A stretch of DNA of 43,286 nt from a virus (IMGVR_UViG_3300017963_000120:1-43286), one strand, 5' to 3'; numbered from the stretch's first letter, positions 10,052 through 42,564 are shown. Program-made: numbers and translations. Notes: generated by a model from the sequence alone, not told the origin.

Positions 10052-10283
10052 TTTTATATAGCCTCGTAAATTTTGGACTCTGATCATAAATCCAATCTAA
10101 TTCTTTCGGTTGAATTTTCCTGCTATCAAACCATGAAAACATAACCAGTACCAACGACAACAGCAGGTACCACCATTGCCAGCCCCATCTGTCAATTGTC
10201 AGTGCACTCACTTGAAGAAATGTCAGAGTTCCAAGATGTGCCTTGACTCTGTTTATACGGTTGTTGAATTGGCCTAAGTTCAC
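9984..10283 (-). CDS. Small membrane protein
   Basis: TM segment WQWWYLLLSLVLVMFSWF; GGAGG RBS before a GTG start. Confidence 0.6.
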   Translation of the reverse strand: MNLGQFNNRINRVKAHLGTLTFLQVSALTIDRWGWQWWYLLLSLVLVMFSWFDSRKIQPKELDWIYDQSPKFTRLYKNVQQILEHLKGKTKDSTDNRMR

Positions 10284-14159: not shown

Positions 14160-14174
14160 TTTATCCTCCAGTAT
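14160..14174. repeat. 15-bp direct repeat flanking the PAPS-reductase-like gene, copy 1
   Basis: TTTATCCTCCAGTAT; identical copy at 14917-14931. Confidence 0.75.
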
Positions 14175-14917: not shown

Positions 14918-15117
14918 TTATCCTCCAGTATATGTATGGGTTTTCCGCAATGACATTTATTACTTGCTTCAAATTTTAAAACATCTCTACCAAATCCAGT
15001 AAAAAATCTATTACATTCTGTATTATAACCTTCACCTTCTTCCTCATGATAAACTTTCACCCACACACATTTATCTTTGTGTATCTCTTTATTCATTACT
15101 GGTATTGGACAGCTCAT
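14914..15117 (-). CDS. Small Cys-rich protein
   Basis: C...YNTEC...CHCGKPI; start likely ATG 15117 (TAATG coupling, GGAG RBS). Confidence 0.6.
   Translation of the reverse strand: MSCPIPVMNKEIHKDKCVWVKVYHEEEGEGYNTECNRFFTGFGRDVLKFEASNKCHCGKPIHILEDK
14917..14931. repeat. 15-bp direct repeat, copy 2
   Basis: TTTATCCTCCAGTAT. Confidence 0.75.
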
Positions 15118-15407
15118 TATTTTCTTCTCCAAATTAAAGTTGTATCAGCATCCACAAATGCGTTCATATATGAAATCCATTGCTTACACCTGACACACCT
15201 GCCCATCTGGTGACCTTCTTTTATAACAACCTTTATTGTGCTATCTGGAAAATCAATCCAGAATATTTCGTTGTTTTCTATATATTCTGGCTTTGAAAGT
15301 AAATGGCCTCTTTCAACACAAACAGAATCATAAACATAAAAATAGGTAACATCAATTTGTGCATAACTACATACAACAAATACAAGTAGAATTATAATTA
15401 CTTTCAT
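15117..15407 (-). CDS. Small secreted protein (signal peptide, +1 Gln)
   Basis: MKVIIILLVFVVCSYA|QID; sequons DSV, DST, DTT; CxxxGH...CVRC. Confidence 0.7.
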   Translation of the reverse strand: MKVIIILLVFVVCSYAQIDVTYFYVYDSVCVERGHLLSKPEYIENNEIFWIDFPDSTIKVVIKEGHQMGRCVRCKQWISYMNAFVDADTTLIWRRK

Positions 15408-15858: not shown

Positions 15859-16245
15859 CTACCTTTCGATATAAATTCTGTCTATGTTATCCCATGTGAA
15901 GATGTGTCTCACTTCGTCTTTAAGTCTTTTTTCTGTATGGGAATATTCACCGTTTTTGTAGATATCCATATCCATGTATCCGTACTCAATTATTTCAAGA
16001 TACTGTGTATGGAATTTTATTTGCCGGTATGGTATATGCATAAATTGAGGATCAACTTCAAATTGAATACTACCAAATGCTTCGTGCAATTCATATTCTT
16101 TTGTTTTTGTAATAACTGTTATCCTGACAATATCATCAGGCATGATGTTTGTCTTTCGTATTTCCCAATCCAGAGAATCACTCACACTGTCAAAACTTTG
16201 CCCGAATAATGGCAGCACTAAAAATATTATGATTAAATATTTCAT
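15859..16245 (-). CDS. Secreted protein (signal peptide, +1 Gln)
   Basis: MKYLIIIFLVLPLFG|QSFDSVSDSL. Confidence 0.7.
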   Translation of the reverse strand: MKYLIIIFLVLPLFGQSFDSVSDSLDWEIRKTNIMPDDIVRITVITKTKEYELHEAFGSIQFEVDPQFMHIPYRQIKFHTQYLEIIEYGYMDMDIYKNGEYSHTEKRLKDEVRHIFTWDNIDRIYIER

Positions 16246-20761: not shown

Positions 20762-21094
20762 TCACCAATCCTTTTTTCTAATATCTATAATTGGATTGTC
20801 GGTACGGTATGGTGGTATTGCCAGAATGGTATCCCCTCTAACTTCCCACTTATAAACATCCAGGTATGTTCTAAGTTTATTGTTGACTGAATCAAGCGTA
20901 CTTTGTAAATTCCATATTTCGACTTGAAGAGAATCAGCAATCATCTGATAAGTTTTTTCACGCAGCAGACTTTGATGATATGCTTTTTTGTACATATCCC
21001 GGTCTGCTTTGCATTGCTTTAAATTTGAACGTACTGATCCACAACTTACTAAAATGATCAGCAATATTATTGAGACATATATCACATATTTCAT
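20762..21094 (-). CDS. Lipoprotein with coiled coil (spanin candidate)
   Basis: MKYVIYVSIILLIILVS|CGS lipobox; sequons DSL, DSV, DTI. Confidence 0.6.
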   Translation of the reverse strand: MKYVIYVSIILLIILVSCGSVRSNLKQCKADRDMYKKAYHQSLLREKTYQMIADSLQVEIWNLQSTLDSVNNKLRTYLDVYKWEVRGDTILAIPPYRTDNPIIDIRKKDW

Positions 21095-22168: not shown

Positions 22169-22969
22169 TCAATGCCTTTTTAGCCTGTTTAAATTTGTAA
22201 TTTTTGTATGCCTTTGTTCATAACCACTTGAAGGATTAAAATTTCCTTTTGAATAACCAGACTCCAAAAAACTAATCATATTACTTGCCCATGTTGCGTC
22301 TCTTAATGTATTATCTAATTGAATATAATATAAATCGCCTGTCATATAATTTGCAGTAGTTCTTCTCGATCCGATTTGGAATGAAGTATTTAAATCAATA
22401 TTCGTTGTGGTCATTGTTGTCGTTGTTGTAGAAACCGCTCCACTATCCGATATATAAAATTGAGCGTTACCATCCCTGTCACACGTAACCACCATCGCAA
22501 CAAAGGTGTTTGCTGTAAATAAATTAGCATTGACAGACAAGGCCAATACAGCATCCACACCAGCCAATCTATATTGTATTGCAACTTGACCATTTGACTG
22601 CCAAAATTGAAAAAAATTAGAAGAATTAACATACTTCCCCGCCCAATCATCCCTTGTAAGATCAGTCACATTAAATCCAACACTCCATGTAAAATCACCT
22701 GTGCCTACGTCCTGATTTGGCGAAGGTGATGCAACAGATAAATGATCGTCACCATCAAATGTTAAATAATGTGTGCCGTTTAAAGGCTTTGCATTGGCAG
22801 TTGATTGTGATGCAGCATAAGAACCAATCTGATCTGTCCATGTGGTCACACTATCAACTTCCAATGTTTTGCTAAGATCACCACGCCAGACATTTGTCGT
22901 ATTTGCATCCTGTGGATTAAACTGTGCATACAATAATATTGGAATTAACAAAAATAAAAGTATTTTCAT
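22169..22969 (-). CDS. LamG/concanavalin-like domain protein with signal peptide
   Basis: Start ATG 22969 (ATGA-coupled): MKILLFLLIPILLYA|QFN; LTFDGDD, GDFT, FQIG, GDLYYIQL LamG-like motifs. Confidence 0.75.
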   Translation of the reverse strand: MKILLFLLIPILLYAQFNPQDANTTNVWRGDLSKTLEVDSVTTWTDQIGSYAASQSTANAKPLNGTHYLTFDGDDHLSVASPSPNQDVGTGDFTWSVGFNVTDLTRDDWAGKYVNSSNFFQFWQSNGQVAIQYRLAGVDAVLALSVNANLFTANTFVAMVVTCDRDGNAQFYISDSGAVSTTTTTMTTTNIDLNTSFQIGSRRTTANYMTGDLYYIQLDNTLRDATWASNMISFLESGYSKGNFNPSSGYEQRHTKITNLNRLKRH

Positions 22970-23265
22970 TTTTTCTTTTCCTTTAAAATTATTATAAAAA
23001 ATAAACATGATATTAACACCGCCACCAAATCTGTTATTGTATCTTTCATATAATGCTGAAATCCACCACCGTATGCATCCATGTTCCAGAAATACTCTGA
23101 TCCATCATACAAAACAGCAACCAACATAACATATAAAAATAATGTTCTTTTTTTGCTTTGATATAATTGCCACTTTTCAGGTAAATATACCCATAGCAGC
23201 ATCCACACATAAGCACCTAAAACCATGTGCTGCCAAAAGTCCGGTTGTCCTAATTGATTTATCAT
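22966..23265 (-). CDS. Three-TM membrane protein
   Basis: D..QH...G, TM segments, DTITDL; sits between the two putative receptor-binding genes. Confidence 0.65.
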   Translation of the reverse strand: MINQLGQPDFWQHMVLGAYVWMLLWVYLPEKWQLYQSKKRTLFLYVMLVAVLYDGSEYFWNMDAYGGGFQHYMKDTITDLVAVLISCLFFIIILKEKKK

Positions 23266-26200
23266 TTTTTCATAAACCTAAAAAAGTTTCTGCCACATCT
23301 TTTGTTATCTTCACCCTCATCACATACCATAAATATTGTGTTGTCATTATACTTATCTAAATTATGATCACCTGCAGTAACCAAAATATTAAAATATGAA
23401 AATCTTGATCTGCTAAACGGTAACATTGAAGGCCATGTAGGATTACCGGCATTACCGGCAAAGTCGAAAGCGACCCCTTCTTCGTCACCCAAAAACCCTG
23501 TTGACCGCCAAGACCGCCCCCTATCCCAACTCTCGGCAAAATATGTCCTATTCCTTGTCAATCCATTCATGGCTGCTATCACCCTGCCATCCGGGAGGTA
23601 GGCCAATGCAACAGGCGCACTATCACCGCCTCTGTATTGCCAGTTATATGGAGTAAATTGCGTCCAGTTATTACCGTTATCACTTGTCTCATATAAATAT
23701 CCGTATAGCCCCACATCATTACGTGTTGCAATTAATCCATTACCAAGCCAGTTAGCCGATCTAACATAAGTCCACTCACTAACATCGGATTGATTTAAAT
23801 CCACAACACAGGTATCGGCTATCCAAGTTTTACATGAATCTGTGCTTTTTAATATAAAATGCTTATTGCTACCATTAATAGGATAATAACACGGTATTCC
23901 TATTGTGTCGGCAGAGCCTATATGTTTTATGCCGCTCCATGCGGCAGAAGCATAAGTTGACCCGTTCGCATCAATAAACCTAAAATTTGAAAGATCACCT
24001 GTTTTTAGAAAACAAACCTTCTGTCCGTCTGGCTTGTATGTAGGAGAGGGTAAAGTATCAAACTGCCCCAACGCCAATACAAGGCTATCATCAGGTGAAA
24101 TAAAAGAATATCCGGCACCGACCGAAACAGTATCACCCGGAGTTATCAACCCACTTTCACCTTGATATACAAGCGAAGGTTTTCCCCATGTTTCCCCCCT
24201 GTCATCTGATACCATCATATAAATTTTATTATCCGCACTAAACTCATAGGATAATTGATTGCCCGGATTATAGCCTTTTTCACCGCCTGAATTAAAAAAC
24301 ATAACAAGGCTATCTCTGCCCGCTTTATCACCCCACTCTACGAGTGAAGAACTTCTTTCAAATACATTTAAATTATTTTTCCTGTTATCTATTCTGAATA
24401 AAGAAAGTTTCTCAAGCCAGTATCCCCTGAACGGCTCCCATTCTAATTGAGGGGCCCAACTTTCCATAAAAATAGATTTATAATCCTCTGAAATCTTCTG
24501 ACATATTTTGTATTTTTGTGGCCCCGTTAACTCATCAGCAAAACACATAATACCAAATATTCTATTGGAAACTTTTGTATGTTCATAAAAATATTTAACA
24601 TCATCTAAATCGGTCATAAAATCAAACCAGATTAAAACCCTATTTTCCTGATTATATTCATTATATGACCAAGGAGTGTCATACAAACCACCGTTGAATT
24701 GACAATCACTACCATATATAATTAATACTGTTTGTGTTCTTCCTGTTAACTCAGTATCAAAGGTAAATGGTATATCATAATCCCACTCAGGTCGCCAAAT
24801 AAAACCGCTTCCGTCTGTAAGATCAAAGTCATAAGTATTTTGCCTAAATACAACCGTATCACTATCTGCGACAGTAATAACCTTATAACCCACATATTCA
24901 GGTGGTTCAATAGACGCAACAAAGGCAGTATCACCAACCTCATACAAGGTATCTGACTGATTATCAAACACAAGTTTTATATCAGCCGTATTAGCATTAA
25001 CACTATCAACAAATACTGTATCTATGGTAAGGTAATCCATGTGAGTCTCAATATTAACCTGTAACCCCCTAAATGGTGTGATATGAAATAATGATGTTGA
25101 CGCATTTGTTAAATTCGTTGTATCAATCACGACATCTGGATAATTTTGCAGTGCATCTCTTATGTGACTAACATAATATGGCTTTGTAAAAATACAATTA
25201 TCTGGATTTAGTATTCTACCAACTTTCAATCGTCTATAATGTGTTGTTCGTCCAGTATTACCCAAAGCATGATTAAACTTAACCAAGCCACCTGTATGTT
25301 TGTATAATATTTCAGTTTTATGCCATGTACTATCATCAACAGCTAATACACTTAATAAGTAATCCTGATCACCGGCCTGCACTTGTACATAATTAGTTAC
25401 GGTAGTGGTATCATCATTTCGTCTTTCAAAAGAAATAACATAATACTCATTCTTAATAAAATCATATTGTGTTGTATCTATGGCAAATGAATTTGCTGCT
25501 AAAGAATTATAAATAGTTATTTCAATATCATCGGCATCAGTTACATCCCATATATACCAATCATTTGCGTTCCCGGTCTGGTCATAAAAATAAACAGTAT
25601 CCCCCGGTGCATCCATCATATAATTTGTATCAACGTCTGCTATTGTCCTATCAAAAAAACCGTAATAATTATTTACAACACCGTTTGTGATTGGTCTGAT
25701 TTTTTTCTGTGTTCCAGAATTTTCATACCTGTCACTTTTATTTGCTGAAGGTCTATAATCTTCATATGCTATCTGACCGTTTATCAAAAACAATCCATTA
25801 AAAAAATCTTTATTTGCAATTTCACCAGAATCTATAATTGTTGAATCTAATACATCAACACCTTCCCAAAATCCGGTATGTGCATGTAAATCATAATAGG
25901 CAATAGCTTCCGGGTATCTGGTTCTTTTGCGTTTTATGATTCTTCTATATTCACTTGTCTGTCTTTTATATGGTGTAGAAAGTTTTTGACCATAAACAAC
26001 ATCAGCAGGTATATCCACTATCACACTATCATCAACACGTTTTATTTCAAGCGTATCCGTAGCAGTCTTATATCCAATCGAAACACCATCTGGTAAATTT
26101 GTGATCATCACCGTATCGGCAGAATCAGACAACAACGCATTCATATATGCCCTTGCACCATCCCCAAAATGTGATGAATCAACTCCACCAGTTTTGATTG

Positions 26201-26768
26201 TCAGCACACCACTACTTTTTGTAATAGCAGCATCATCTACCAATGTTGTAAGTCCACTATCATCTGACAAGGCACCATCGGCATTTAACTCAACTGCACT
26301 ACCTGCAACCTTATCAGATGTAGTTATCTGGTTCAATTTATCATCTGTAATTGAACCGGCTAATTTTTCATTTGATATTCCCAAATCTTTAACACGTAAA
26401 TTTCTACCGGAATTATATTCCTCTATCGTCACATCATCTGGAACATGCAGACTTTCAGCAACCACACTTTGAGCTGCAGCCACATAATTATTATCATATA
26501 TGATGCCAATATTTGTACGCCATAAAACACCGGCAACATAAACATCATACACACCGGCAACAACAGAATCAGAGCCATTTGTCCAATAATACCACCCGGC
26601 ATCAAGCCATGTTAAATCATACTGCTTTACACCACTTTGATAAAGCTGTACCGTTGCATTTTTTATCGGCCTACCATCAGATGATTCAACAGGTACCGGC
26701 AAAAAATATTTTGTTTGACCAAACACCGATAATGATAAGGCCAGTATAATAAAAATGATTGTTTTCAT
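23262..26768 (-). CDS. Tail fibre/spike-like protein with C-terminal Asp-box (sialidase-like) propeller and N-terminal signal peptide
   Basis: MKTIIFIILALSLSVFG|QTK; fibre-shaft repeats (DDVTI..LRVK..GI, DDAAI..LTIK..GV); Asp boxes SDDRGETW, STDSCKTW, TSDNGNNW, SWDRGRSW. Confidence 0.75.
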   Translation of the reverse strand: MKTIIFIILALSLSVFGQTKYFLPVPVESSDGRPIKNATVQLYQSGVKQYDLTWLDAGWYYWTNGSDSVVAGVYDVYVAGVLWRTNIGIIYDNNYVAAAQSVVAESLHVPDDVTIEEYNSGRNLRVKDLGISNEKLAGSITDDKLNQITTSDKVAGSAVELNADGALSDDSGLTTLVDDAAITKSSGVLTIKTGGVDSSHFGDGARAYMNALLSDSADTVMITNLPDGVSIGYKTATDTLEIKRVDDSVIVDIPADVVYGQKLSTPYKRQTSEYRRIIKRKRTRYPEAIAYYDLHAHTGFWEGVDVLDSTIIDSGEIANKDFFNGLFLINGQIAYEDYRPSANKSDRYENSGTQKKIRPITNGVVNNYYGFFDRTIADVDTNYMMDAPGDTVYFYDQTGNANDWYIWDVTDADDIEITIYNSLAANSFAIDTTQYDFIKNEYYVISFERRNDDTTTVTNYVQVQAGDQDYLLSVLAVDDSTWHKTEILYKHTGGLVKFNHALGNTGRTTHYRRLKVGRILNPDNCIFTKPYYVSHIRDALQNYPDVVIDTTNLTNASTSLFHITPFRGLQVNIETHMDYLTIDTVFVDSVNANTADIKLVFDNQSDTLYEVGDTAFVASIEPPEYVGYKVITVADSDTVVFRQNTYDFDLTDGSGFIWRPEWDYDIPFTFDTELTGRTQTVLIIYGSDCQFNGGLYDTPWSYNEYNQENRVLIWFDFMTDLDDVKYFYEHTKVSNRIFGIMCFADELTGPQKYKICQKISEDYKSIFMESWAPQLEWEPFRGYWLEKLSLFRIDNRKNNLNVFERSSSLVEWGDKAGRDSLVMFFNSGGEKGYNPGNQLSYEFSADNKIYMMVSDDRGETWGKPSLVYQGESGLITPGDTVSVGAGYSFISPDDSLVLALGQFDTLPSPTYKPDGQKVCFLKTGDLSNFRFIDANGSTYASAAWSGIKHIGSADTIGIPCYYPINGSNKHFILKSTDSCKTWIADTCVVDLNQSDVSEWTYVRSANWLGNGLIATRNDVGLYGYLYETSDNGNNWTQFTPYNWQYRGGDSAPVALAYLPDGRVIAAMNGLTRNRTYFAESWDRGRSWRSTGFLGDEEGVAFDFAGNAGNPTWPSMLPFSRSRFSYFNILVTAGDHNLDKYNDNTIFMVCDEGEDNKRCGRNFFRFMKK

Positions 26769-26776
26769 TATATAAC

Positions 26777-27307
26777 CTATCGGTTTAATATTCCTACATG
26801 TGGCCTTGAAAGTGAATCATCTTTTGCATCACCCCGGATACATCTAAACTGCCAACCGATTGACGGACCTTCCCACCATGCAGAATCAGCAGGAATATTC
26901 CTCATAACATAAAGCGAATCAGATTTGATATTGCGCCAGATGTTATACCAACCCGGTTCCCAAAACTGATTTGGATGTGTATCTTTATCGAAATAAAATC
27001 TTACATCCAGCGTGACAGAATCAGCACGTGCATCAACAGAATCAATGGAGAATGTCATTGTAAGAATACCCTCAACACCGTCTGATTTTAGGGGCATCAT
27101 ATCTGTAAATAAAGTATCAGAAGATAATGAATCACACATATATGAAGGTAATGTTCCCACAAGCCTTAATGAATCAGTATCCCTAAATGCAGTACCCCAC
27201 CTGATTGAATCTTGAAATTGTGGCAATCCCCAATACTGGACCTCATCATTTTGCCCGTATGACAGACTTACCAAAATTAGTAAAATTAAAACAATTGCTA
27301 ACTTCAT
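26777..27307 (-). CDS. Secreted beta-rich protein, dense in D-S/T sequons
   Basis: MKLAIVLILLILVSLSYG|QND; nine D(S/T)(A/L/V/I) motifs. Confidence 0.75.
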   Translation of the reverse strand: MKLAIVLILLILVSLSYGQNDEVQYWGLPQFQDSIRWGTAFRDTDSLRLVGTLPSYMCDSLSSDTLFTDMMPLKSDGVEGILTMTFSIDSVDARADSVTLDVRFYFDKDTHPNQFWEPGWYNIWRNIKSDSLYVMRNIPADSAWWEGPSIGWQFRCIRGDAKDDSLSRPHVGILNR

Positions 27308-27322
27308 AATACCCCCTTCTCA

Positions 27323-30300
27323 CTAAAGGCCATGTTTTGCCCTAATTTGAGTTATTAGAGATTGTAATTTTTCTATTTTTTCAGTGTCCTTTTCCTTTTT
27401 TGCTTTGGTTAATTGGACACGTATTTTTCTAATCATTTCCTTTGCTTCTTTACGTGGCACCTGATCCCGATCAATCATATCCTGTGCCTGATCCAATAAT
27501 GTTTTCTTCAATGCAAATTCAGAATAACCGAGTGCCCTTCTGATATCACCACCGGTTGCTGCTTCATATATTCCGGTAGTAATTCTTTTGACCGGATCAA
27601 AAGGAACACCAACAAATTTAGATGTAGCACTTGCCAGTTCATTTGTAATATTAAGGAATGTTTCAAGATCAATTTCATTGCCACGTACTATTTTTCCAAT
27701 TTCCTTTGCTACTCTCTGAAACCGTTCAAGTGGTCTTTCATGTGTTAAGAAATCCACATTTGATAGTGAACCGGCAAAAAGTGCATCAAATAATCCTTCA
27801 AGAAAATCACCAAGTATAAGTAAGCCATTGAATGAACCGAGCAAAGCAGCTCGTAATTGCTTTTCATCTTCCCACCTAAAACCGGATGCAGCAAACTGGA
27901 ACATCATAGGCAGTACAAAATGCGCCACCACAAACCGCTTTACATTTTCTGTTTTTGATCCCCGGCCTGCAATTAAATTTCTGATTGCCCCAACTTCTGC
28001 CCGGTAGTACTGATTTGGTGAAGTCATAAACATTGTAAATAATTTTGCCCAACTTCCCATCCTTTGTATTTCGCCCAAATCCTCAACATCACCTGCTTGC
28101 TGCATTCTTTTAGTCGAAGATTCAAATTCATTTAATGCATTTTTATGTGCTGTTTCAGGACCGGCACCTTCCTCAATTTGCTGATCATAATGATATTTAT
28201 AGACTGACCACCCACCATAAAGGATTGCTGCCCTGTCACCCAACTTTGTAAATAACATCAGAGCATTTGACAGGTCATTCACGCCAGACATTTTCTTAGG
28301 AATAGACTGTTTCATTGCAAGCATGATATCCCGTTCAAATCCTACCGAGTACCTTGCTTTCATCATTTCAGAACTCATTAATGTTTTTGTAGACTTAATA
28401 GGATGTTTATTAAAATCAACCACACCTGCTATAAAATCCTTTACCGGTATATCAGATGCATATGCCGGGAAAGAAGTAAGCTGCTTTAAAAATACAGTCG
28501 GATTGATACCCAATACCGCACGTGTAAAATTCGCCCTAATTTTATCAAGTGCATTTGTGACAAGCATTCTGTCCACACCGCCACGTGCCAGATCATCAAT
28601 CATTTTATTTAAAACTTGCAGCATATTCTGACCATGATACTGCTTAATGGCCTTTGATACTTCGTCAGAATTAAATATGCTTCTAAGTTTTCTTACCGTA
28701 TGTGTCCAGTTTTTAAAATGTTCCATTTGCAGGATGTGCTGCATAAGCACCTGATCACCATCCACATACCGCAAACCATGTGTATTGTCCACACGCGATC
28801 TTAAACTGCTATTTAAAGTAGTACCGTATTGTGTCCGGTCCTTTAAATATGGATCATCATCAGTTTCGCCCTTCTTATCTCTGGATATCGGTGTATAGAA
28901 CTCATTGAACGGCAGGTCAACAAAGAACCTTTCCCGGAATGTTTTATTGATTGTCTCATAATAATCCGGGTAAAACTCATTGATTTGCCATAACGCCCAT
29001 TCCTTGACTTCCGGTAATAGAAATTTTTCGACTGCTTTGAAAGTCTCATCTGTCCACCCCATCATTTCAAAGGTAGGTTGAAGTTTTGGATCAAGATATT
29101 CAAGCCATTTTTTATAAGCCTCATTTTGTGACATTTCCAGTTCAATCTGTTTTTCTTTTCCGTCCTCTCCCATCTTTGTGATAAATGCACCGGTTTTTTG
29201 ACGTTCATTATTCTTCCGGAGCTTCCGGGATAATTTCCTGCCCTTAACCTTGTATATTTCTTCCATTTTATCATTGATCAATTGCATCAATTCACGTATG
29301 CCCTGATTTTCTGCATTCCGGGCATAGCGAACATCCCGACCAAATTCAGTGTTTAAAAATCCACGTAAAGGTTTACTTTTTTTATGGTACCGGGATAATT
29401 TATCCATAAGCCATTCAAACGATTGCTGCATATTGTCAAATGACTTGAATATATTATCAATTTTATCCCGGCCTTCTGCTCTCATTTCTTCCTGTGATAA
29501 TACCCCCTTCCCACCGGTGACCATATGCACTACCCTGTTCCTGATCCTTGCCATATCCTGCAAGCGGATATTTTCCTGTATCCGGTGTTCAGTCTGACCT
29601 TTTTCGATCAGTGTATTTAATTCACGTATGGCCTGTGCAACACCGGCAGCATCCTTGCCTGCCATATCACCAAATACGCCATACAGATAAAGTATTTCTT
29701 CTTCTTCAGTTGTAGGTTCCCGGCCTTCTAAATTAATGCGCTCAAGTATCTGTTCCTGTTTTTCTCTCACACCTTCCTCTGACATTCCCATCACATCACG
29801 TAAATCTCTTAAAACTTTATATACTTCCGGTGTCAAGGTGGTACCACGTGGTACCATGTTTTTAACCTTTGGCTCATAGCGGACCATCAGATTTTTAATA
29901 CGTTCAAGGCCAGTTCTTTTTTGTACGTTTTCTGCAATGGCATCTATCTTTTTATAAGCCTTGTCCACATCTTTTAAATTTTTGGCCTTTGCGACCTGTG
30001 TTAAAAGCGGACCAACTTGCCCACGTGAAATTGCTTCTGGTGGCAGATATTTTCGGGCATACTTCTGGATCAGCATTTTCACATCTTCTAATCTTTTACG
30101 CTCAAGTTGTTTTCCTTTTCTAACGCCTTGAGAGATATGTTTTATTTTATCTTTGATCAGTTTTGACAGGTGAACTTGAATCATTGGGTCCTCAAACATT
30201 GATTCACCCTTAAATTCACCTTCCTGAAACAAGATATTATGACGTAAATATTTTTTATAGGTGTCAGTTTCCCAATCAGCAGGTATGGCACCATCAGCAA

Positions 30301-33300
30301 CTTCTTGCTGTCTCATCAGTTCAATCTGTTCTTCAGAAATTCCCAAATCCATTGATTCAACATGCAATGGTGCATTATCTCTTAACTTTTCTATAAACCA
30401 ATCAGTAGGATTATAATTTGAAGGTGGTTGCGATATTACACCTTCCTCAATTGCCGTAGCAGCCAGATCATCAAGGCCAGTTCCTTCACCCGGCTTTGCA
30501 GCAGTCATATTCCATAAACCACGATCCTCTTTATAGGCAATGCCATGCTCTGCTAAATGTTCCCGGATGATCTTACCCTTTGATTTTACCCATTGGCGTA
30601 CTGTTAATATTCCTTCTGGTTGTTTGACAGGTTTTGCTTTTTTTACATCAACACCGAGCATTCTATCAAACACATCTTTTACTTCAGGTGACAGATCAAC
30701 ATCAATAGCAGTACCCTTGATCCGTCCGTAAATCTCTTTTAACCATTCTTTAAAAGATTCAAATATTTCGATCAGTCTTTCATTTGGTGCTGTACCGGTA
30801 CGGAGATAATTTTCAAAACCACGTGCGAATTTTTCTTCTGCTTTCCTGTTCCACGTTTTCTGTCCGGTCCATTTTAAAACGGTAATATCATCTTCGATAT
30901 TAAGATCACGCCTGAAGATATGTGCCAGTTCATGTATTGCTGTGGACACATCGGCATTTTCAAAAGCATGGATGATTGCCCTGCCATCATCAAGGAATTG
31001 TGTAGCACCCTTGTATTCCTGAAACAGTGGCATTCCTTCATTAATGACAGCAAAACGCATATCGTCTGTAATTGGCAATTTGTGAATATCAGTAACCTCA
31101 TTCATAAATCCCGGTTCCTCAACCACATAATCAACATCTTGCGCAATATTTACTGGTGATTTACCAACAACAATTTCATCTTTTTGTGTTTTTGCACCAT
31201 ACCGCTTGCCAAACTTGTTAGCATATCTGACAAGCATATCATCATAAAACCCCTTCATTCCCTGACCACCGATTGAAAGATCATCACCGGCAATTGTGAT
31301 ATCACCCTTACTGGAAAGAATTTTATTTGCAATTTCCCTACCAACAACATTTTCTAAAGGTGCCCCCTTTAACCTATAACTTTCAGAACTCGCATCAGTT
31401 ACTTTACCAGTTTCAGTATCAATGTTCATTGATACAACTTGTTTATTGTTTTTGCTAAATCTAAGAAGTCTTGCATTTGGCATACCCAATACACCAATAA
31501 CTTCTATTTCATCAATATTTTTCCTTATTGCAGATTCATACCGATCAATTTGCTGCTTGCCGGTTGTCCAACCTACTGAATCAAATCCCCTTTCGGCTGC
31601 CCATCGGACCATACGCTTAAATGTCAATTCGTGCCACGTTTTTTTGAATGGTGCATCTGGTAATCCAATACGCAAATTTACGCCTTCCTGATCCAGTTTA
31701 AATACTTGCTTTTTGATATCAGCAATTTCCTGAAAGTATTTTGCTGCTTTAGTAGATTCTGGTATTAACAACGTAAGATTGCCTTCTGGTGTGATATAGG
31801 CTAATTTTTTATAATCACCATCTTTTTGTTCTAACATGTCTGAATATCCCCATCCACCATCGGCAGTTTGAGCTATAAATATTGAGACACCTTCCTCTTT
31901 CTCTATTTTATCAATCCAATCTAATCTTTGCTGATCCAGATCACCCAATATTTTAGTTATCTGTTCAAGTCTTTTTTCATCCCTGTACCCACGCTTCCTG
32001 CCTTCTTGATGCCAATCAGACTGAATTTCCTCAATAAATAATATTTTTTTACCGTCTTTATCCATTCTTTCTTTAAACCGCACATGTGCCAACACGTTAG
32101 GTTCCTCAAAATGACCTTCAGTAAATACATTTGTTTTATCAGATTCAACCTTTGCAATATGTGACCTTAATATCTCTGCCCGGTTTTGAAGATCACCCAC
32201 AATTTTAGAGTGCCTTGAATGTAGTTTATCCTGATATAATTGTTTTAAATCAACAACAACCTTGTTTCGCATTCCAGACCATTCAGATTCAACTCTTTTT
32301 TCAGCAGAGTAAGGCGTATCACCACGCCTTTTAAACATCCTTATTCTGAATTGTTTCTCGGCCTCAAGTTCATTGGTTATTTCTTCTTGTAATTCAGGTA
32401 ATGTTTGTTCCCACGCCCATTGCCAAGTACCGACAATAAAACGATTTATTTGATCAAGCTTATCATTTATTTCTTTTGACCTTACATCGGCCTCAACTTT
32501 ATCCCGAATTTGCTGTTCTACTTTCGTTAATTCCTCAAGCCATTTTTCCTGATCTTTACTTCTGACAGTGGGTAAGGTCAACATCATTTCACGATATTTT
32601 TCACCACCGGGCAGCGTATATTCTTCATATCTGGTACCACGCATCGGACCACCACGAAAGAGCTCATCAACATAACCATCAACATTATATCTGACTTGAA
32701 CACCACGATCCTGCAATTGCTTAGCCAATGCATCCAGTTCAGTACGCTCATCTAAGAAATCACCAGTAGGATCAGTTTGCAAATTATCAATATAGGCATC
32801 ACTTTGTTTGACATAATCAATAAGTAACTGTCTAAATTCCGGTGTGACCTGTGTATGCTCGTAGGTAAATCCCTCATCCAGTGTATAATACAGTTGACCG
32901 CCACTATCATCATAAATTACTTCTGTAAATTCAATCTGGTTTTCATAAAACCGGTCAAGCACTTCCTGCTTAGTAACAGATTCTTTTTCATTTAAAAGAT
33001 CAGCGATACCGGAGTATTGTAATTCTTCTTCTTTGATACCACCCTTCTTAATCATGTTCCTGACCTGATCCGAATTTGCTTTATTTGGCATTTTTTCATT
33101 GATCAGGTTTTCGAGCTTTGAATAAAATGTAGGTGCCGGTTGCTGTTCCTGATAAAGTATATTTTCTTTTGCAGGATCATAAGTTCCTATATTTCCGGTT
33201 GCAGATTTTATCTGATTAGGATCAAATGCTATCCAGACATTATGATCTGGACCACCACCCATCTTATTACCACGATCCTGTATGCCATCATAGCCATGTT

Positions 33301-36124
33301 CTTTAAATATCTTTACCGCTTTTTTCGGAATTTGTGTTGACCATGTAGGATTATAATTAGGATTTTCTGCTTTATTTTTTTCATCCTGTTCAATAGACTC
33401 CACAAACATTTTTAGCGATTCACGCCAATCTTCTTTTTCACGTTCATATTTTGCTTTTTGTTTTAATGCAGCCAGTACATCATCCGGGAATTTATCCTGT
33501 ATGACTATCGGATTTTGTATTGAAAGATAAAGTGGAAACACGCCCGGTTGCGACCTGTCAGTTGACTGCCAATCTGCACCAATCCGGTTAAGTATTTCCT
33601 CAAACGCAGTATATAAATCTTCCCGTAGATAAGTAGGTGTTTTATCTTCCATGTCGGCATAAACAATATTTTCACCCATCCACTCATAAAATTTATATAT
33701 ACTCCATAAGTCTTTACTGCCACCACGAAGTTTCATTCTGTATGCTTCTTTGTCATATTGAGCATTATCTTCTATCCACTGATCCATCCATGCAAGCGCA
33801 TGTACCGCTTCCCCGTTTTCATCCTTTTCATTTTTCATCTGCTCAATAATTTTGTGCTGTTTCGGTGTCATTTCCTGATTCCACAACCTGCCAGAATATT
33901 TTAATCCTTTGCCTTTTTTAAATTTATACTGTTCACCCTCAGTAAATCCTTTTCTTTCATATTTACCTGTGGCATAATTACTTGCCACTTCTGGACTTTC
34001 GGTTGCATAAAATCCACCTGACTCGGAAGCGTATGGTTTATATTTTTCACCATATCCCAACACATTATAATGACCGGAATAAACTACTTTTGGTTTTCCC
34101 TTTTCATCAGTGACTTTGGATTTCCGAAACCAGTTTTTTAGATTTTGCTCTATTTCTTCAGGTGTACGTTTTTGAAATAATTTTTCTTCTGTTTCAGGTG
34201 CCTGCCCCCTTCTAATCCCGGCAATCCGTCTTTTATACCAATCTTCTTTTTTATTCCCTGTCTGCTTTGCCCACGTTTCTGCACGTGCATCAGCAATATC
34301 GGCAACGGCATCGGCCTGCATATCATCCAGATTGAAATTAGTTTTCATTTCATCTCGGAACGTCTGCCTGTCTGTAATCGGTTTATTACCGGCAGGTGTT
34401 TGCTGATTTATAATTGTCTGTGCATCATCCGGTTTCATTTTCTTTATATCGGCAGCAGAGTAACCAAGATCACCAAGTCTTTTTTTATCATCATTGGTAA
34501 TCATAAATTTTACTTTTGCGCCTTTTTCTTCCTCTGCAACCTTTTCCGCTTTTTCTTCCATTGCAGTAATTTTCTCTTCAACAGTAGGTAGTTTTTCTTC
34601 AGGCAATGGTTCACGAAGAATATCGGCAAGTCTTTTTTCCTGATCCGGTGTTAATACCTGACCGGCATCCTCAACCGATGTTTTTAATTCCTGTACATCT
34701 GATTCAACTCTAAGGTTTTCAGATTCTTCCTGCACAACCTCATCTATAATTTTAGGTCTGTCAACCTCAACAAATTCACCTTCCTCAATAACATAATAGG
34801 TATCATCTTTAACTGATAATGCTTCAGTTAATAGTGGAATTTGCTGTTTATCTTCTAATTTTTCAGATTGTTTTAATCGCTCAATTTCCGCTTTTATCTC
34901 ATCACTGGTCACATCCTCAGACAGCGCAAACCGGACCGCATCACGTGTGCCTTCCAGTTTTCTAAATTCTTTTGGTGCTTCTTCCGTTACTTCTTCACCC
35001 GGCTTTATTCTCTCGGCAGTTACGCCGGTAACAGCAGCACCCGGCGCAAGCAAAAATGCCATTGGTATAGCAACTTCAGATGTAGTATTCCAGATAGACT
35101 TTAACCATTCCCCCGGTGCAGATTGCCCGATTGCAGTATTATCTATTTCATTTGATAATGCTTTTGAAAACTCTTTTGTGGAAAACATTAATATATCCTG
35201 CAATACTTCCTCAGATACTTCCGTTGCCCAATTCTGACCGTATTTCGTAACCAACTTCTTTATAATTTGAGCTGCAGTTCCCCTAATCGTATCCAGTGCA
35301 AGCCTTTTCATTCCGGGAATGATCTTTGATACCTGACTAAATTCAATGGCAGCGTATGGTACACCGGCAGCATGTGATAAAGGCTTTGCAATTTTATCAT
35401 CAATTCCCAACTTTCTCATTTCACCATACATCTGCCCGGCACCCTGTCTGTACCAGTAAAAGCCTGATCCTGTCATCATACCGGCAGCGAATGCAGCAGG
35501 CATGGTAATAACTTCTTCAGGTGCTATGGCCTGTGGACCCATTTGCCCAGCAGCCAATGCACCGGCAGCATAGGTGGCACCCAATGCACCGCCCTCGGTA
35601 TAACCTTTCAACATAGGACCTGCCATCTGCACCACTTTATATAAATTGTCTGACAACCAATTAGTGCCCTTAACCGGATCAGACTGCATTTTCTTTTCAA
35701 AGGTTTCACGCATCTTTGCGACTTGCTTATAATCCTGCAAACCTAAAGATGCCTCATACATCAGTGCATCCAGTTCCACACCACGAAGGCCACGACTCCA
35801 CGCTTCTGCAATATTATCCACAAATGACCGGCTGACATTCACCACATCCTCAACCGGTGTTTCTTCAGGTGCAGGTTGATATGTCACGCCAGATGTATCA
35901 GTAGAAGCTGCAGGTGCAGGTACCGGATCAGGAAAGGCAACCACGCCAGTTTGCACCGGTGCCGGTTGTAATCCGGGAGTTTCTACTGGTGCAGGTTCAG
36001 GTTCCGTAACACCATACTTCTGGTAGATATCACCATAATATTTTGATTTAGCATCTTTATAAGTAGGTGCTAATCCTTCACCAGTTTGACCAAATTTCTT
36101 TTGTGCCTCTTTAAAAGTGGACAT
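27323..36124 (-). CDS. Giant polyvalent/ejection protein (ART-like domain, EEIQSDW domain, zincin metallopeptidase)
   Basis: ART-PolyVal-like WF..SKV.D..G.P.VVY, GYDG, AFDPNQIKS; FIEEIQSDWHQ module; HELAH plus EEKFARGFE zincin; Ala/Gly-rich hydrophobic N-terminal region; follows two ejection-like genes. Confidence 0.8.
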   Translation of the reverse strand: MSTFKEAQKKFGQTGEGLAPTYKDAKSKYYGDIYQKYGVTEPEPAPVETPGLQPAPVQTGVVAFPDPVPAPAASTDTSGVTYQPAPEETPVEDVVNVSRSFVDNIAEAWSRGLRGVELDALMYEASLGLQDYKQVAKMRETFEKKMQSDPVKGTNWLSDNLYKVVQMAGPMLKGYTEGGALGATYAAGALAAGQMGPQAIAPEEVITMPAAFAAGMMTGSGFYWYRQGAGQMYGEMRKLGIDDKIAKPLSHAAGVPYAAIEFSQVSKIIPGMKRLALDTIRGTAAQIIKKLVTKYGQNWATEVSEEVLQDILMFSTKEFSKALSNEIDNTAIGQSAPGEWLKSIWNTTSEVAIPMAFLLAPGAAVTGVTAERIKPGEEVTEEAPKEFRKLEGTRDAVRFALSEDVTSDEIKAEIERLKQSEKLEDKQQIPLLTEALSVKDDTYYVIEEGEFVEVDRPKIIDEVVQEESENLRVESDVQELKTSVEDAGQVLTPDQEKRLADILREPLPEEKLPTVEEKITAMEEKAEKVAEEEKGAKVKFMITNDDKKRLGDLGYSAADIKKMKPDDAQTIINQQTPAGNKPITDRQTFRDEMKTNFNLDDMQADAVADIADARAETWAKQTGNKKEDWYKRRIAGIRRGQAPETEEKLFQKRTPEEIEQNLKNWFRKSKVTDEKGKPKVVYSGHYNVLGYGEKYKPYASESGGFYATESPEVASNYATGKYERKGFTEGEQYKFKKGKGLKYSGRLWNQEMTPKQHKIIEQMKNEKDENGEAVHALAWMDQWIEDNAQYDKEAYRMKLRGGSKDLWSIYKFYEWMGENIVYADMEDKTPTYLREDLYTAFEEILNRIGADWQSTDRSQPGVFPLYLSIQNPIVIQDKFPDDVLAALKQKAKYEREKEDWRESLKMFVESIEQDEKNKAENPNYNPTWSTQIPKKAVKIFKEHGYDGIQDRGNKMGGGPDHNVWIAFDPNQIKSATGNIGTYDPAKENILYQEQQPAPTFYSKLENLINEKMPNKANSDQVRNMIKKGGIKEEELQYSGIADLLNEKESVTKQEVLDRFYENQIEFTEVIYDDSGGQLYYTLDEGFTYEHTQVTPEFRQLLIDYVKQSDAYIDNLQTDPTGDFLDERTELDALAKQLQDRGVQVRYNVDGYVDELFRGGPMRGTRYEEYTLPGGEKYREMMLTLPTVRSKDQEKWLEELTKVEQQIRDKVEADVRSKEINDKLDQINRFIVGTWQWAWEQTLPELQEEITNELEAEKQFRIRMFKRRGDTPYSAEKRVESEWSGMRNKVVVDLKQLYQDKLHSRHSKIVGDLQNRAEILRSHIAKVESDKTNVFTEGHFEEPNVLAHVRFKERMDKDGKKILFIEEIQSDWHQEGRKRGYRDEKRLEQITKILGDLDQQRLDWIDKIEKEEGVSIFIAQTADGGWGYSDMLEQKDGDYKKLAYITPEGNLTLLIPESTKAAKYFQEIADIKKQVFKLDQEGVNLRIGLPDAPFKKTWHELTFKRMVRWAAERGFDSVGWTTGKQQIDRYESAIRKNIDEIEVIGVLGMPNARLLRFSKNNKQVVSMNIDTETGKVTDASSESYRLKGAPLENVVGREIANKILSSKGDITIAGDDLSIGGQGMKGFYDDMLVRYANKFGKRYGAKTQKDEIVVGKSPVNIAQDVDYVVEEPGFMNEVTDIHKLPITDDMRFAVINEGMPLFQEYKGATQFLDDGRAIIHAFENADVSTAIHELAHIFRRDLNIEDDITVLKWTGQKTWNRKAEEKFARGFENYLRTGTAPNERLIEIFESFKEWLKEIYGRIKGTAIDVDLSPEVKDVFDRMLGVDVKKAKPVKQPEGILTVRQWVKSKGKIIREHLAEHGIAYKEDRGLWNMTAAKPGEGTGLDDLAATAIEEGVISQPPSNYNPTDWFIEKLRDNAPLHVESMDLGISEEQIELMRQQEVADGAIPADWETDTYKKYLRHNILFQEGEFKGESMFEDPMIQVHLSKLIKDKIKHISQGVRKGKQLERKRLEDVKMLIQKYARKYLPPEAISRGQVGPLLTQVAKAKNLKDVDKAYKKIDAIAENVQKRTGLERIKNLMVRYEPKVKNMVPRGTTLTPEVYKVLRDLRDVMGMSEEGVREKQEQILERINLEGREPTTEEEEILYLYGVFGDMAGKDAAGVAQAIRELNTLIEKGQTEHRIQENIRLQDMARIRNRVVHMVTGGKGVLSQEEMRAEGRDKIDNIFKSFDNMQQSFEWLMDKLSRYHKKSKPLRGFLNTEFGRDVRYARNAENQGIRELMQLINDKMEEIYKVKGRKLSRKLRKNNERQKTGAFITKMGEDGKEKQIELEMSQNEAYKKWLEYLDPKLQPTFEMMGWTDETFKAVEKFLLPEVKEWALWQINEFYPDYYETINKTFRERFFVDLPFNEFYTPISRDKKGETDDDPYLKDRTQYGTTLNSSLRSRVDNTHGLRYVDGDQVLMQHILQMEHFKNWTHTVRKLRSIFNSDEVSKAIKQYHGQNMLQVLNKMIDDLARGGVDRMLVTNALDKIRANFTRAVLGINPTVFLKQLTSFPAYASDIPVKDFIAGVVDFNKHPIKSTKTLMSSEMMKARYSVGFERDIMLAMKQSIPKKMSGVNDLSNALMLFTKLGDRAAILYGGWSVYKYHYDQQIEEGAGPETAHKNALNEFESSTKRMQQAGDVEDLGEIQRMGSWAKLFTMFMTSPNQYYRAEVGAIRNLIAGRGSKTENVKRFVVAHFVLPMMFQFAASGFRWEDEKQLRAALLGSFNGLLILGDFLEGLFDALFAGSLSNVDFLTHERPLERFQRVAKEIGKIVRGNEIDLETFLNITNELASATSKFVGVPFDPVKRITTGIYEAATGGDIRRALGYSEFALKKTLLDQAQDMIDRDQVPRKEAKEMIRKIRVQLTKAKKEKDTEKIEKLQSLITQIRAKHGL

Positions 36125-39940: not shown

Positions 39941-40665
39941 TATTTCGTATACTCCAAACTTGAACCAAAACCATCAATTTGATAATGTATATCAAACTCC
40001 GTCATTAATATATCACCTGAATGATTATCACCTGAAGATGCACCAAGCCTTGACAATTTCATTTTTATGACACTGGATAATGTTTTACCGGTACCGTCAA
40101 GTGTACCTATGCCTGTCAACTGGTGCAAGGTGCCTGATGTATAACTTTGTGAATTTCCGCTATCTTTAACTGTACTCCAACTGCCCGGAACAGCACCACC
40201 GACATTTGCCCATTTATACTGCAACTGCCAGACAACTGAATCATCGGCAGACTGTTCCCAATGTACATGTGCCTCAACATCCGATCCTTCACGCCATGCA
40301 TGTGGCAACTGTGCAATAATTGTAATGCTCTCAGTTTGAGAATCATCAAAAAGCCAACCGACATTTGTCGTATCATACTCCGGTACCGCAGCATTCTGGT
40401 TTTGTGGAGAAAGTGCAGATGCAGGAAAACGAAGATCATCCCAAAAATAACCGGATACCTCAAAGTCTTTTGTAATGATCATATCACCGGAAACAGTGAC
40501 AATATCATTTTGTGTATCTACATTGAATATATTATTACCGTCTTTATCCTGCACAGTAAATATATTTGCCAAATCCGCTTTTGGTGATATGGTCAGTGAC
40601 ATTATTTGCTGACCGATAACAATTCCCACAATCACAAGTATAAATATTATGATTTTATTTTTCAT
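39940..40665 (-). CDS. Tail-fibre-tip-like protein with signal peptide
   Basis: MKNKIIIFILVIVGIVIG|QQI; C-terminal WDDLRFP...QLPH.W.EG...HVHW...FDIHYQID..GS..EY.K jelly-roll-like domain. Confidence 0.65.
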   Translation of the reverse strand: MKNKIIIFILVIVGIVIGQQIMSLTISPKADLANIFTVQDKDGNNIFNVDTQNDIVTVSGDMIITKDFEVSGYFWDDLRFPASALSPQNQNAAVPEYDTTNVGWLFDDSQTESITIIAQLPHAWREGSDVEAHVHWEQSADDSVVWQLQYKWANVGGAVPGSWSTVKDSGNSQSYTSGTLHQLTGIGTLDGTGKTLSSVIKMKLSRLGASSGDNHSGDILMTEFDIHYQIDGFGSSLEYTK

Positions 40666-42012: not shown

Positions 42013-42564
42013 TTAGGGATTTGTCGTTGACTTCTTTGCTTTGCTGCCTACATATATCGGTTGACCAGTAGGACCAACATCGATAACATCTTTCTTCAAA
42101 TGCAAATTGATCCACAAATATGTATCACTCGGATTGCCTGTCTGACCGTCAACTTCAATGATCATCCATTTATTCACATGGAATTTAAGATCATCCGTAC
42201 CACTGTTTATGCCTATCGTGTCATATTTAGCAGTGGTTGTACAGTTATCCAGATCAGCAGGTGTTGTGGATTCCCACGTAGCCAAGTCCTGTGAAAAATG
42301 ATATATAATATTTGCATCTTCAGTACCGGTACCGTTATACATATCCACCGACACCCTACCGTCAACATCATTGCAGTCACCAATAAACAAAGGTGGAGAA
42401 TGGTAGCTTCCGGTAGAATCAGCCATTGCAGCAGTCTGGAATTTATAGTGTACGTAACTCACACCTTCCTGAATGGTCACAGTAGGTTGATTATAGTTAT
42501 CGGCAGCAACAAGCAGCAAAAAGAATGCAACAAGAATAATCGGATATATTAATTTTTTAAACAT
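42013..42564 (-). CDS. Signal-peptide-bearing beta-rich protein in the head module (decoration-like)
   Basis: MFKKLIYPIILVAFFLLLVAA|DNY; GAGGT RBS; lies between the capsid and adaptor genes. Confidence 0.65.
   Translation of the reverse strand: MFKKLIYPIILVAFFLLLVAADNYNQPTVTIQEGVSYVHYKFQTAAMADSTGSYHSPPLFIGDCNDVDGRVSVDMYNGTGTEDANIIYHFSQDLATWESTTPADLDNCTTTAKYDTIGINSGTDDLKFHVNKWMIIEVDGQTGNPSDTYLWINLHLKKDVIDVGPTGQPIYVGSKAKKSTTNP

What the first reader, a model, noticed from the sequence alone, without database searches (positions are those of the whole stretch)
23262..27307. Exported proteins are loaded with the FCB-type O-glycosylation sequon D-(S/T)-(A/L/V/I/M/T)
Seen (manual counts): 9 sequons in the 176-aa protein (DSI, DSL x4, DTL, DSV x2, DSA); about 22 in the 1168-aa fibre; 3 in the 96-aa protein (15117-15407); 3 in the lipoprotein (20762-21094); 2 each in the 128-, 183- and 241-aa proteins; 1 in the LamG protein. 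By contrast there are about 2 in the 2933-aa protein, 0 in the portal and 1 in the capsid. TerL has 5 and the nozzle 3, so the background is not zero. Known: this is the sequon of the Bacteroidota general O-glycosylation system, which acts on extracytoplasmic proteins. Inference: the phage routes its appendages through the periplasm to acquire a host-type glycan coat, which would give a reason for the signal peptides.
Basis: partly seen in the sequence, partly recalled or inferred. Interest (0 to 1): 0.9.

Follow-up and report, generated by a model that had tools for sequence, protein, structure and literature searches.

The report
Exported, sugar-site-packed phage appendage proteins
This uncultured marine-sediment phage puts a bacterial export signal, and four to ten times the chance number of a bacterial sugar-attachment motif, on two proteins that are likely outer parts of its particle, so these parts would be finished and sugar-coated by the host outside the cytoplasm where tailed phages are normally built.

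Summary
Observation confirmed. The 176-aa protein has 9 D-(S/T)-(A/L/V/I/M/T) motifs (0.9 expected) and the 1168-aa protein 22 (5.8); no shuffle reached either count. The excess needs D and S/T in that order. It is absent from the window's 46 non-exported proteins (33 vs 26) and from 437 ORFs of six non-FCB phages. The 176-aa family (47 members, median 33% identity) keeps leader, Gln+1 and 3-9 motifs each (239 vs 45). A second phage repeats the layout with exported tailspike-like genes (75 vs 25). Cultured phage phi18:3 has leader-bearing proteins annotated as virion parts by MS, but these lack the motif (3 vs 9.6). Three of eight exported window proteins show no excess. Best reading (0.5): appendages are exported, glycosylated by the host and join the particle at lysis. 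Glycosylation and virion location are inferred, not shown. Shine-Dalgarno use points to a host outside Bacteroidia. This scan already noted the pattern in at least 38 other genomes; I found no paper describing it.

The parts
26777..27307 (-). 176-aa exported all-beta protein; predicted Sec leader 1-18, Gln at +1; 9 motifs at residues 33, 45, 59, 64, 89, 96, 130, 141, 164; member of a family of 47
   Evidence: the fold model is too poor to use (pLDDT 37)
23262..26768 (-). 1168-aa exported, likely fibre or spike; predicted leader 1-17, Gln at +1; 22 motifs; C-terminal BNR/Asp-box propeller-like region (about 850-1125); two short I-x-x-x-K-L repeats at 131 and 140 (fibre-type label recalled)
   Evidence: Pfam BNR_2 E 7.4e-7, 29.2 bits, under the 31.4 cut-off; four Asp-box-like motifs; weak sialidase matches E about 0.006; no homologue found
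22169..22969 (-). 266-aa (279 from the upstream ATG) exported beta-rich protein next to the endolysin; Gln at +1; 1 motif, no excess
39940..40665 (-). 241-aa exported protein between the likely adaptor and nozzle genes; Gln at +1; residues 68-239 match the C-terminal domain of a leaderless 372-aa tail-module protein of Rhodobacteraceae phage LS06-2018-MD06; 2 motifs, no excess
42013..42564 (-). 183-aa exported all-beta protein two genes after the major capsid gene (possible cement or decoration, not established); leader and two D-S/T sites conserved in 13 aligned members; no Gln at +1
   Evidence: model pLDDT 80.4, pTM 0.79; fold searches inconclusive
20762..21094 (-). 110-aa predicted lipoprotein in the lysis region (likely o-spanin); 3 motifs vs 0.42
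   Evidence: endolysin GH108 at 21640-22125
15117..15407 (-). 96-aa exported protein outside the structural block; Gln at +1; 3 motifs vs 0.23
15859..16245 (-). 128-aa exported protein outside the structural block; Gln at +1; 2 motifs vs 0.38
27323..36124 (-). 2933-aa likely ejection (polyvalent) protein with an ART-PolyVal domain; no leader; 2 motifs vs 6.6; marks the position just upstream of the exported block here and in L109
9431..11888 (-). Phage sugar-handling genes: sulfotransferase (9431-10087), weakly GT2-like 271-aa protein (10192-11007), NDP-sugar epimerase (10986-11888); link to the motifs untested
   Evidence: (GT2 E 0.12, under cut-off)

Best explanation
The 176-aa and 1168-aa proteins carry export leaders and a large, conserved excess of the D-S/T-hydrophobic motif, and are likely outer virion parts that the host would export, O-glycosylate in the periplasm and release to join the particle at lysis. 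Steps: (1) Sec export and signal peptidase I cleavage before Gln (predicted from sequence; conserved in the family). (2) Glycan transfer by the host's periplasmic oligosaccharyltransferase (inferred from the motif statistics and the published rule). (3) Folding in the periplasm while leaderless capsid, portal, adaptor, nozzle and ejection proteins assemble in the cytoplasm (leader absence is seen; assembly is inferred). (4) Attachment once holin and endolysin open the inner membrane and wall (inferred). The glycan is likely a stabilising or shielding coat used on some appendages, not the reason for export as such. The host is likely a Shine-Dalgarno-using, Q-rule member of the FCB group (Ignavibacteria- or Calditrichota/KSB1-like), not Bacteroidia.
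For: Excess and specificity: in the 8 exported proteins only D works at -1 (44 vs 12.0; E 3 vs 4.3, N 5 vs 8.1), only S (26 vs 5.8) and T (18 vs 6.1) at the centre, and the reversed order gives 13 vs 12.0. Not a fibre-composition effect: 0 of 437 ORFs from six non-FCB phages reach p<0.001; the 22 largest sum to 82 vs 78.8, top ratio 2.2. Conservation: the 55% identical homologue keeps 8 of 9 sites, with S/T swaps at two. The family of 47 has 3-9 motifs each, 239 vs 45.0; 274 of 315 D-S/T pairs (87%) are followed by L/I/V/T/A/S, against about 90% in glycoproteomes (PMC12871550 Fig. 1 legend). 44 of 47 pass the leader heuristic and 39 of 47 have Gln at the aligned +1. Second phage L109: same order (ejection protein, family gene, four leader-bearing genes); 5 leader proteins 75 vs 24.8, 6 others 9 vs 9.0; three have pectate-lyase-like beta-helix matches, two over the Pfam cut-off, the usual tailspike fold (established knowledge). 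Virion precedent: phi18:3 gp085-087 are annotated structural by MS/MS and begin with leaders ending before Gln. The 241-aa protein shares a domain with a tail-module protein of a cultured phage. Positive control: crAss001 gp27, annotated lysis regulatory protein, has 4 vs 0.32.
Against: No glycan and no virion location were observed for any window protein. The 1168-aa protein has no homologue and no model, so surface exposure of its sites was not tested; the 176-aa model is unusable. Part of the conservation may be structural: at family column 96, 11 of 13 rows without D keep S/T, and at column 130, 12 of 22. The family search profile itself held motifs; with leader and motifs masked 39 of 47 still score 20 bits or more, 8 do not. 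Three exported window proteins, 15 relatives' exported proteins pooled (22 vs 17.8) and phi18:3 gp085-087 (3 vs 9.6, P 0.014 for depletion) show no excess. TerL shows a cytoplasmic excess. The host is unidentified, and the glycan system is characterised only in a handful of Bacteroidota. The 96- and 128-aa exported proteins lie outside the structural block, so this phage also exports proteins that are probably not virion parts.
Confidence: 0.5

Rival explanations
1. The proteins are exported and host-glycosylated but stay with the cell: envelope-modifying accessory proteins (superinfection exclusion, receptor masking, surface enzymes), not virion parts.
For: PMC10367356 reads Q-rule phage proteins this way (passages). 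The 96- and 128-aa exported proteins lie among non-structural genes. About half of noncytoplasmic Bacteroidota proteins carry the motif anyway (PMC12871550). No window protein was matched to a solved virion part.
Against: The genes sit in the structural block at fixed places in many relatives. No leaderless fibre candidate is evident among the window's ORFs (judged by inspection). L109's exported genes are tailspike-like. phi18:3's leader-bearing proteins are MS-annotated virion proteins.
Confidence: 0.2
2. The proteins are exported virion parts, but the motif is kept for folding (turns and strand caps in beta-sandwiches) or is a relic, and this host does not glycosylate it. Export serves another end, such as keeping wall-degrading or sugar-binding parts away from the cytoplasm.
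For: S/T often persists without D at columns 96 and 130. phi18:3's exported virion proteins avoid the motif. Shine-Dalgarno use points away from the classes where the glycan is characterised.
Against: Beta-rich fibres of non-FCB phages show no such excess. E and N do not stand in for D across the family (13 vs 13.6, 20 vs 21.4). 315 of 690 Asp residues in the family are followed by S/T. The excess recurs in unrelated exported proteins of two phages.
Confidence: 0.17
3. The phage's own sugar genes (epimerase, GT2-like protein, sulfotransferase) build or remodel the glycan, as phage glycosyltransferases do for mycobacteriophage virions (recalled), so the coat is not simply host-type.
For: The genes are present at 9431-11888. 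Relative L034 has a clear GT2 gene just after its post-capsid gene (E 2.6e-21).
Against: These enzymes have no leader, while the motif excess is confined to exported proteins. The GT2 match in the window is weak (E 0.12). No phage oligosaccharyltransferase or flippase was found by Pfam or PHROGs among 45 ORFs scanned.
Confidence: 0.08
4. The N-terminal hydrophobic stretches are uncleaved anchors or mis-called starts, and the proteins work in the cytoplasm; the motif excess is incidental.
For: Leaders were called by heuristic only. TerL shows that cytoplasmic excess can arise by chance.
Against: Leader shape and Gln at +1 recur in 6 of 7 predicted SPI substrates of the window and 39 of 47 family members. 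The shuffles exclude chance.
Confidence: 0.05

Closest known systems
Bacteroidota general protein O-glycosylation system (PMC12871550; parts 1-2 of 4 of the text read)
   Same: Motif D-S/T-hydrophobic; enrichment only in noncytoplasmic proteins; E not tolerated; third-position spectrum about 90% L/I/V/T/A/S (87% here).
   Different: The substrates are phage-encoded and likely virion parts; density is far above typical; the host probably lies outside the characterised classes; no glycan shown here.
Cellulophaga phage phi18:3 gp085, gp086, gp087 (KC821620, Pachyviridae)
   Same: Tandem genes shortly before a glycosyl hydrolase lysis gene, with leaders ending before Gln; annotated structural by MS/MS.
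   Different: No sequence homology to the window's exported proteins; motif depleted (3 vs 9.6), not enriched; the host is a Flavobacteriia species with scarce Shine-Dalgarno use.
Q-rule signal-peptide proteins of Porphyromonas gingivalis phages (PMC10367356; passages read)
   Same: Phage genes with leaders obeying the Q-rule, read as adapted to the host's Sec system.
   Different: There they are of unknown function and proposed to modify the outer membrane; the paper has 0 hits for 'glycosyl'. Its Supplementary Data 4, which lists the genes, was not read.
Glycosylated mycobacteriophage virions (recalled; seen only as citations in the listing)
   Same: Sugar-coated tailed-phage particles.
   Different: Phage-encoded glycosyltransferases act in the cytoplasm, with no export leader and no D-S/T motif (recalled).
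Filamentous phage pIII/pVIII and haloarchaeal pleolipovirus spike proteins (recalled, no call)
   Same: Virion proteins made with signal peptides; the pleolipovirus spike is glycosylated by the host.
   Different: Those virions assemble at or bud through the membrane; this is a P22-portal, SU10-type-capsid tailed phage whose head forms in the cytoplasm.
Jelly-roll capsid cement proteins (Bbp16 of BPP-1; Pam1 gp6, named in earlier scan notes)
   Same: Small all-beta protein encoded just after the capsid gene (183-aa family); weak feature-level leads for the 176-aa protein (Bbp16 row score 0.80).
   Different: No fold match was established; known members have no leader (recalled).

Membership tests
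Substrates of Bacteroidota O-glycosylation | D-S/T-(L/I/V/T/A/S/M) motif above chance, specific for D and S/T | tested here: met
Substrates of Bacteroidota O-glycosylation | Noncytoplasmic location (Sec or lipoprotein leader) | tested here: met
   Heuristic and by eye only: (44 of 47 family members)
Substrates of Bacteroidota O-glycosylation | Sites in exposed soluble regions | tested here: inconclusive
   176-aa model pLDDT 37; no model of the 1168-aa protein; sites not mapped on the 183-aa model
Substrates of Bacteroidota O-glycosylation | Host that encodes the system | tested here: inconclusive
   Q-rule fits (6 of 7); Shine-Dalgarno use 14 of 32 vs 1-16% in five Bacteroidia phages; no credible host genome found
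Substrates of Bacteroidota O-glycosylation | Glycan attached | not testable with these tools
   Needs glycoproteomics
Q-rule SPI substrates | Gln right after the predicted cleavage site in most SPI substrates | tested here: met
   6 of 7 in the window; 39 of 47 in the family; the 183-aa family does not follow it
Phage tail fibre / tailspike (1168-aa protein) | Position in the structural block beside ejection and lysis genes | tested here: met
Phage tail fibre / tailspike (1168-aa protein) | Homology or fold match to a known fibre; trimer formation | tested here: inconclusive
   No homologue or PHROG; only a BNR-like C-terminus; trimer not tested
Phage tail fibre / tailspike (1168-aa protein) | Present in the virion | not testable with these tools
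   Uncultured phage
Capsid cement / decoration proteins (183-aa and 176-aa proteins) | Jelly-roll or beta-tulip fold matching a solved cement protein | tested here: inconclusive
   183-aa model good; Foldseek PDB no match at E<=0.001, weak rows are cupins and jelly-roll virus capsids; BFVD top rows TM under 0.4; the wide VIA search was not finished when the budget ended
Capsid cement / decoration proteins (183-aa protein) | Gene placed right after the capsid gene across relatives | tested here: met

The most novel reading that the evidence does not exclude
A whole group of sediment podophages builds its particle in two compartments: core in the cytoplasm, and spikes, fibres and a head cover in the periplasm, where the host coats some of them densely with its own species-specific O-glycan. 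The released virion wears the glycan of its last host. The same data imply that D-S/T O-glycosylation works in Shine-Dalgarno-using FCB lineages outside Bacteroidia.
Probability: 0.4. Interest if true: 0.9.

Novelty: new variant of a known kind. Interest (0 to 1): 0.72.

Why it matters
Tailed-phage particles are held to be built wholly in the cytoplasm. Exported, host-glycosylated appendages would add a second assembly compartment and a host-made, non-genetic surface to the virion, which could affect stability, receptor binding and recognition by the next host. The claim is testable now: phi18:3 is in culture for the export step, and the 176-aa protein is a compact nine-site reporter for the glycosylation step. 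It also gives a sequence-only host marker (leader, Gln+1, motif, Shine-Dalgarno use) for uncultured phages.

Tried and rejected
Chance or composition: rejected. General property of beta-rich fibres: rejected for the six non-FCB phages tested. Assembly error: no letter differences in the contigs of two runs. Homologues of the 1168-aa protein: none; only lengths 642-2044 and 8000 candidates were scored. Capsid plus two copies of the 183-aa protein: 'no answer', no evidence either way. Host search: the two genome-contig scans gave nothing and two contigs in bins labelled Nanoarchaeia and Enterobacteriaceae, which I take to be mis-binned phage contigs (inference); of 30 cluster look-ups none named a usable host; tblastn of the replication protein gave mixed hosts; the capsid has no match among cultured phages. 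Leaderless genes at the post-capsid position in L031, L032, L034 and L037 are not detectably homologous to the 183-aa family, so they are no control. The 183-aa profile rang in 0 of 13 records. No RNA holder listed. Loci for the 176-aa family: scans with the window protein and P0113 found none; only P0063 gave loci (L109 analysed, L110 not). Rows dropped before the pooled relative count: one false leader call (L002 terminase), two duplicates, two truncated ORFs and the distant L035. A6 left out P0079 and P0093. Literature: eight searches in a library limited to open PMC papers and bioRxiv found no paper on exported, host-glycosylated tailed-phage appendages; PMC12386605 and PMC8402811 (passages read) do not describe it.
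Full report
Setting. The window is a complete 43,286-base virus record with direct terminal repeats. All genes discussed are on the minus strand. It has a P22-like portal, a terminase, a GH108 endolysin and a 2933-aa protein with an ART-PolyVal domain; the capsid protein wraps over the ends and carries PF17236. No tape-measure or sheath gene was recognised among 45 ORFs scanned, so it is likely short-tailed. The two runs that hold the stretch are a sediment and a seawater metagenome, both possibly its source.

The observation. The mature 176-aa protein has 9 motifs against 0.92 expected and the mature 1168-aa protein 22 against 5.82; 0 of 100,000 and 0 of 20,000 shuffles reached these numbers. 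The eight leader-bearing proteins together have 44 against 12.0, the 46 others 33 against 26.2 (P 0.11). The signal is specific: with any other residue in place of D, or of S/T, or in reversed order, there is no comparable excess. It is uneven: the 241-, 183- and 279-aa exported proteins are at chance level, and TerL, with no leader, has 5 against 1.26.

Controls. I called ORFs in 11 cultured phages. Among 437 ORFs of six non-FCB phages none reached p<0.001 and 2 reached p<0.01; the 22 with the largest expectation summed to 82 against 78.8. The two window proteins ranked first and second of all ORFs. The next was crAss001 gp27, annotated as a lysis regulatory protein (4 vs 0.32); two small proteins with hydrophobic N-termini in phi14:2 and phi38:1 also ranked high. 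So the excess is not a property of beta-rich fibres in general, and it does appear in envelope-directed proteins of Bacteroidota phages.

Conservation. The nearest homologue of the 176-aa protein (55% identity) keeps 8 of 9 sites, swapping S and T at two. A profile search gave 46 proteins. With the window protein these 47 have median identity 33%; 44 pass the leader heuristic, 39 have Gln at the aligned +1, and each has 3 to 9 motifs, 239 in all against 45.0. Eight columns hold the strict motif in 16 to 40 rows. Of 315 D-S/T pairs, 274 (87%) are followed by L, I, V, T, A or S; the review gives about 90% for measured glycopeptides (PMC12871550, parts 1-2 of 4 read). Two cautions. The search profile contained the motifs; after masking leader and motifs 39 of 47 still scored 20 bits or more. 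And S/T often stays where D is lost (11 of 13 rows at column 96, 12 of 22 at column 130), so some sites also have a structural role.

Are they virion parts? Not shown, but likely. (a) A second phage (L109) has the same order: ejection protein homologous to the 2933-aa one, the family gene, then four leader-bearing genes. Its 5 leader proteins have 75 motifs against 24.8, its 6 others 9 against 9.0. Three of the four match the pectate-lyase-like beta-helix family, two over the cut-off, the usual tailspike fold. (b) The 241-aa protein shares residues 68-239 with a leaderless protein lying among tail genes of a cultured Rhodobacteraceae phage. (c) The 183-aa protein two genes after the capsid keeps its place, leader and two D-S/T sites in 13 aligned members. 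Its model is all-beta and good, but no cement match was established. (d) phi18:3 gp085-087 begin with leaders ending before Gln and are annotated as structural from MS/MS. The 1168-aa protein itself has no homologue; it ends in a BNR-like region.

The phi18:3 proteins have 3 motifs against 9.6, and 15 leader-bearing proteins of relatives have 22 against 17.8 (121 leaderless ones: 100 vs 105.9). Relative L020 has large leaderless proteins after its nozzle gene with no excess (5 vs 4.7, 7 vs 5.7). Export is thus broader than motif loading, and the glycan cannot be the general reason for the leaders. Excess in one phage and depletion in another would both fit selection acting on proteins exposed to the periplasmic transferase, but that reading is my inference.

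Host. Six of seven predicted SPI substrates start with Gln. The Q-rule is typical of Bacteroidetes (mean 71%), also high in Ignavibacterium album (77%) and low in most Chlorobi (PMC5837995, passages). But 14 of 32 window genes have a Shine-Dalgarno core before the first ATG (8 of 209 internal ATGs), against 12 of 75, 5 of 73, 3 of 59, 2 of 45 and 1 of 101 in five Bacteroidota phages. Bacteroidia, Flavobacteriia and kin are Shine-Dalgarno-scarce, while Calditrichae (51%) and Ignavibacteria (32%) are not (PMC10783764, passages). The host is therefore likely an FCB lineage outside Bacteroidia. This is indirect; no host genome was found.

Mechanism. Seen: leaders, Gln+1, motif excess and its conservation, gene order. 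Inferred: cleavage and export, glycan transfer by the host, joining of the parts to the particle at lysis, and a stabilising or shielding role. Overall 0.5. Rivals: cell-envelope accessory proteins (0.2), structural motif without glycan (0.17), phage-made glycan (0.08), no export (0.05).

Novelty. The glycosylation system and the Q-rule are known; Q-rule phage proteins are reported (PMC10367356, passages); leader-bearing virion proteins sit in GenBank annotations. Eight paper searches found no description of exported, host-glycosylated appendages in tailed phages; subscription papers are mostly outside that library. This scan has noted the pattern before: 40 findings in at least 38 genomes for fibres and 21 in at least 20 for cement proteins; those are unchecked AI notes, and I reached phi18:3 before reading them. 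None lies in this genome or resembles the 183-aa gene by sequence. What this window adds is the 47-member family with position-level conservation, a matched second phage, and the hint of a host outside Bacteroidia.

Noticed in passing
window 9431-11888 (-): Sulfotransferase, weakly GT2-like protein and NDP-sugar epimerase in a row, with a PAPS-reductase-domain gene at 14174-14917; target unknown (glycan, host surface or DNA).
   Followed up: partly
window, gene starts: Shine-Dalgarno use (14 of 32) together with Q-rule leaders, an unusual pair for Bacteroidia phages.
   Followed up: partly
L107 18892-24584 (phi18:3 gp085-087) and 38 Cellulophaga phage records: MS-annotated virion proteins with Sec leaders and fewer motifs than chance; homologues that cover the N-terminus occur in several other cultured Cellulophaga phages.
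   Followed up: partly
L108 1594-2196 (crAss001 gp27); phi14:2 69230-69808; phi38:1 44184-44783: Small proteins with hydrophobic N-termini in Bacteroidota phages are motif-rich (4 vs 0.32, 4 vs 0.53, 3 vs 0.3); likely glycosylated spanins.
   Followed up: partly
L031 1189-1590, L032 1061-1531, L034 920-1393, L037 4941-5342: In four relatives the post-capsid position holds a leaderless small protein of another family; L034 follows it with a GT2 glycosyltransferase gene.
   Followed up: partly
L029 1833-3021: Two tandem copies of the 183-aa family gene; each has lost one of the two conserved D-S/T sites.
   Followed up: no
L004 15219-16208; L035 11977-13500: Unrelated or distant phages also carry a leader-bearing gene just after the capsid gene, without motif excess in L035 (1 vs 3.25).
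   Followed up: no
L036 (G001:C116) and L037: Related phage contigs sit in genome bins labelled Nanoarchaeia and Enterobacteriaceae; probably mis-binned.
   Followed up: partly
window 27323-36124 (-): The 2933-aa likely ejection protein has fewer motifs than chance (2 vs 6.6; 9 D-S/T pairs vs 18.9), as does its L109 homologue (3 vs 4.8); it may avoid glycosylation while crossing the next host's periplasm.
   Followed up: no
window 22966-23265 (-): 99-aa membrane protein between the 1168-aa and 279-aa exported genes; role unknown.
   Followed up: no
L003 3799-4560 and L004 2-448: Proteins with tandem DSV repeats (WDSVRDSVGDSV), a cytoplasmic-looking source of false motif hits.
   Followed up: no
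L109 15041-18604: 1187-aa exported protein with 45 motifs against 12.9 and no Pfam match.
   Followed up: partly
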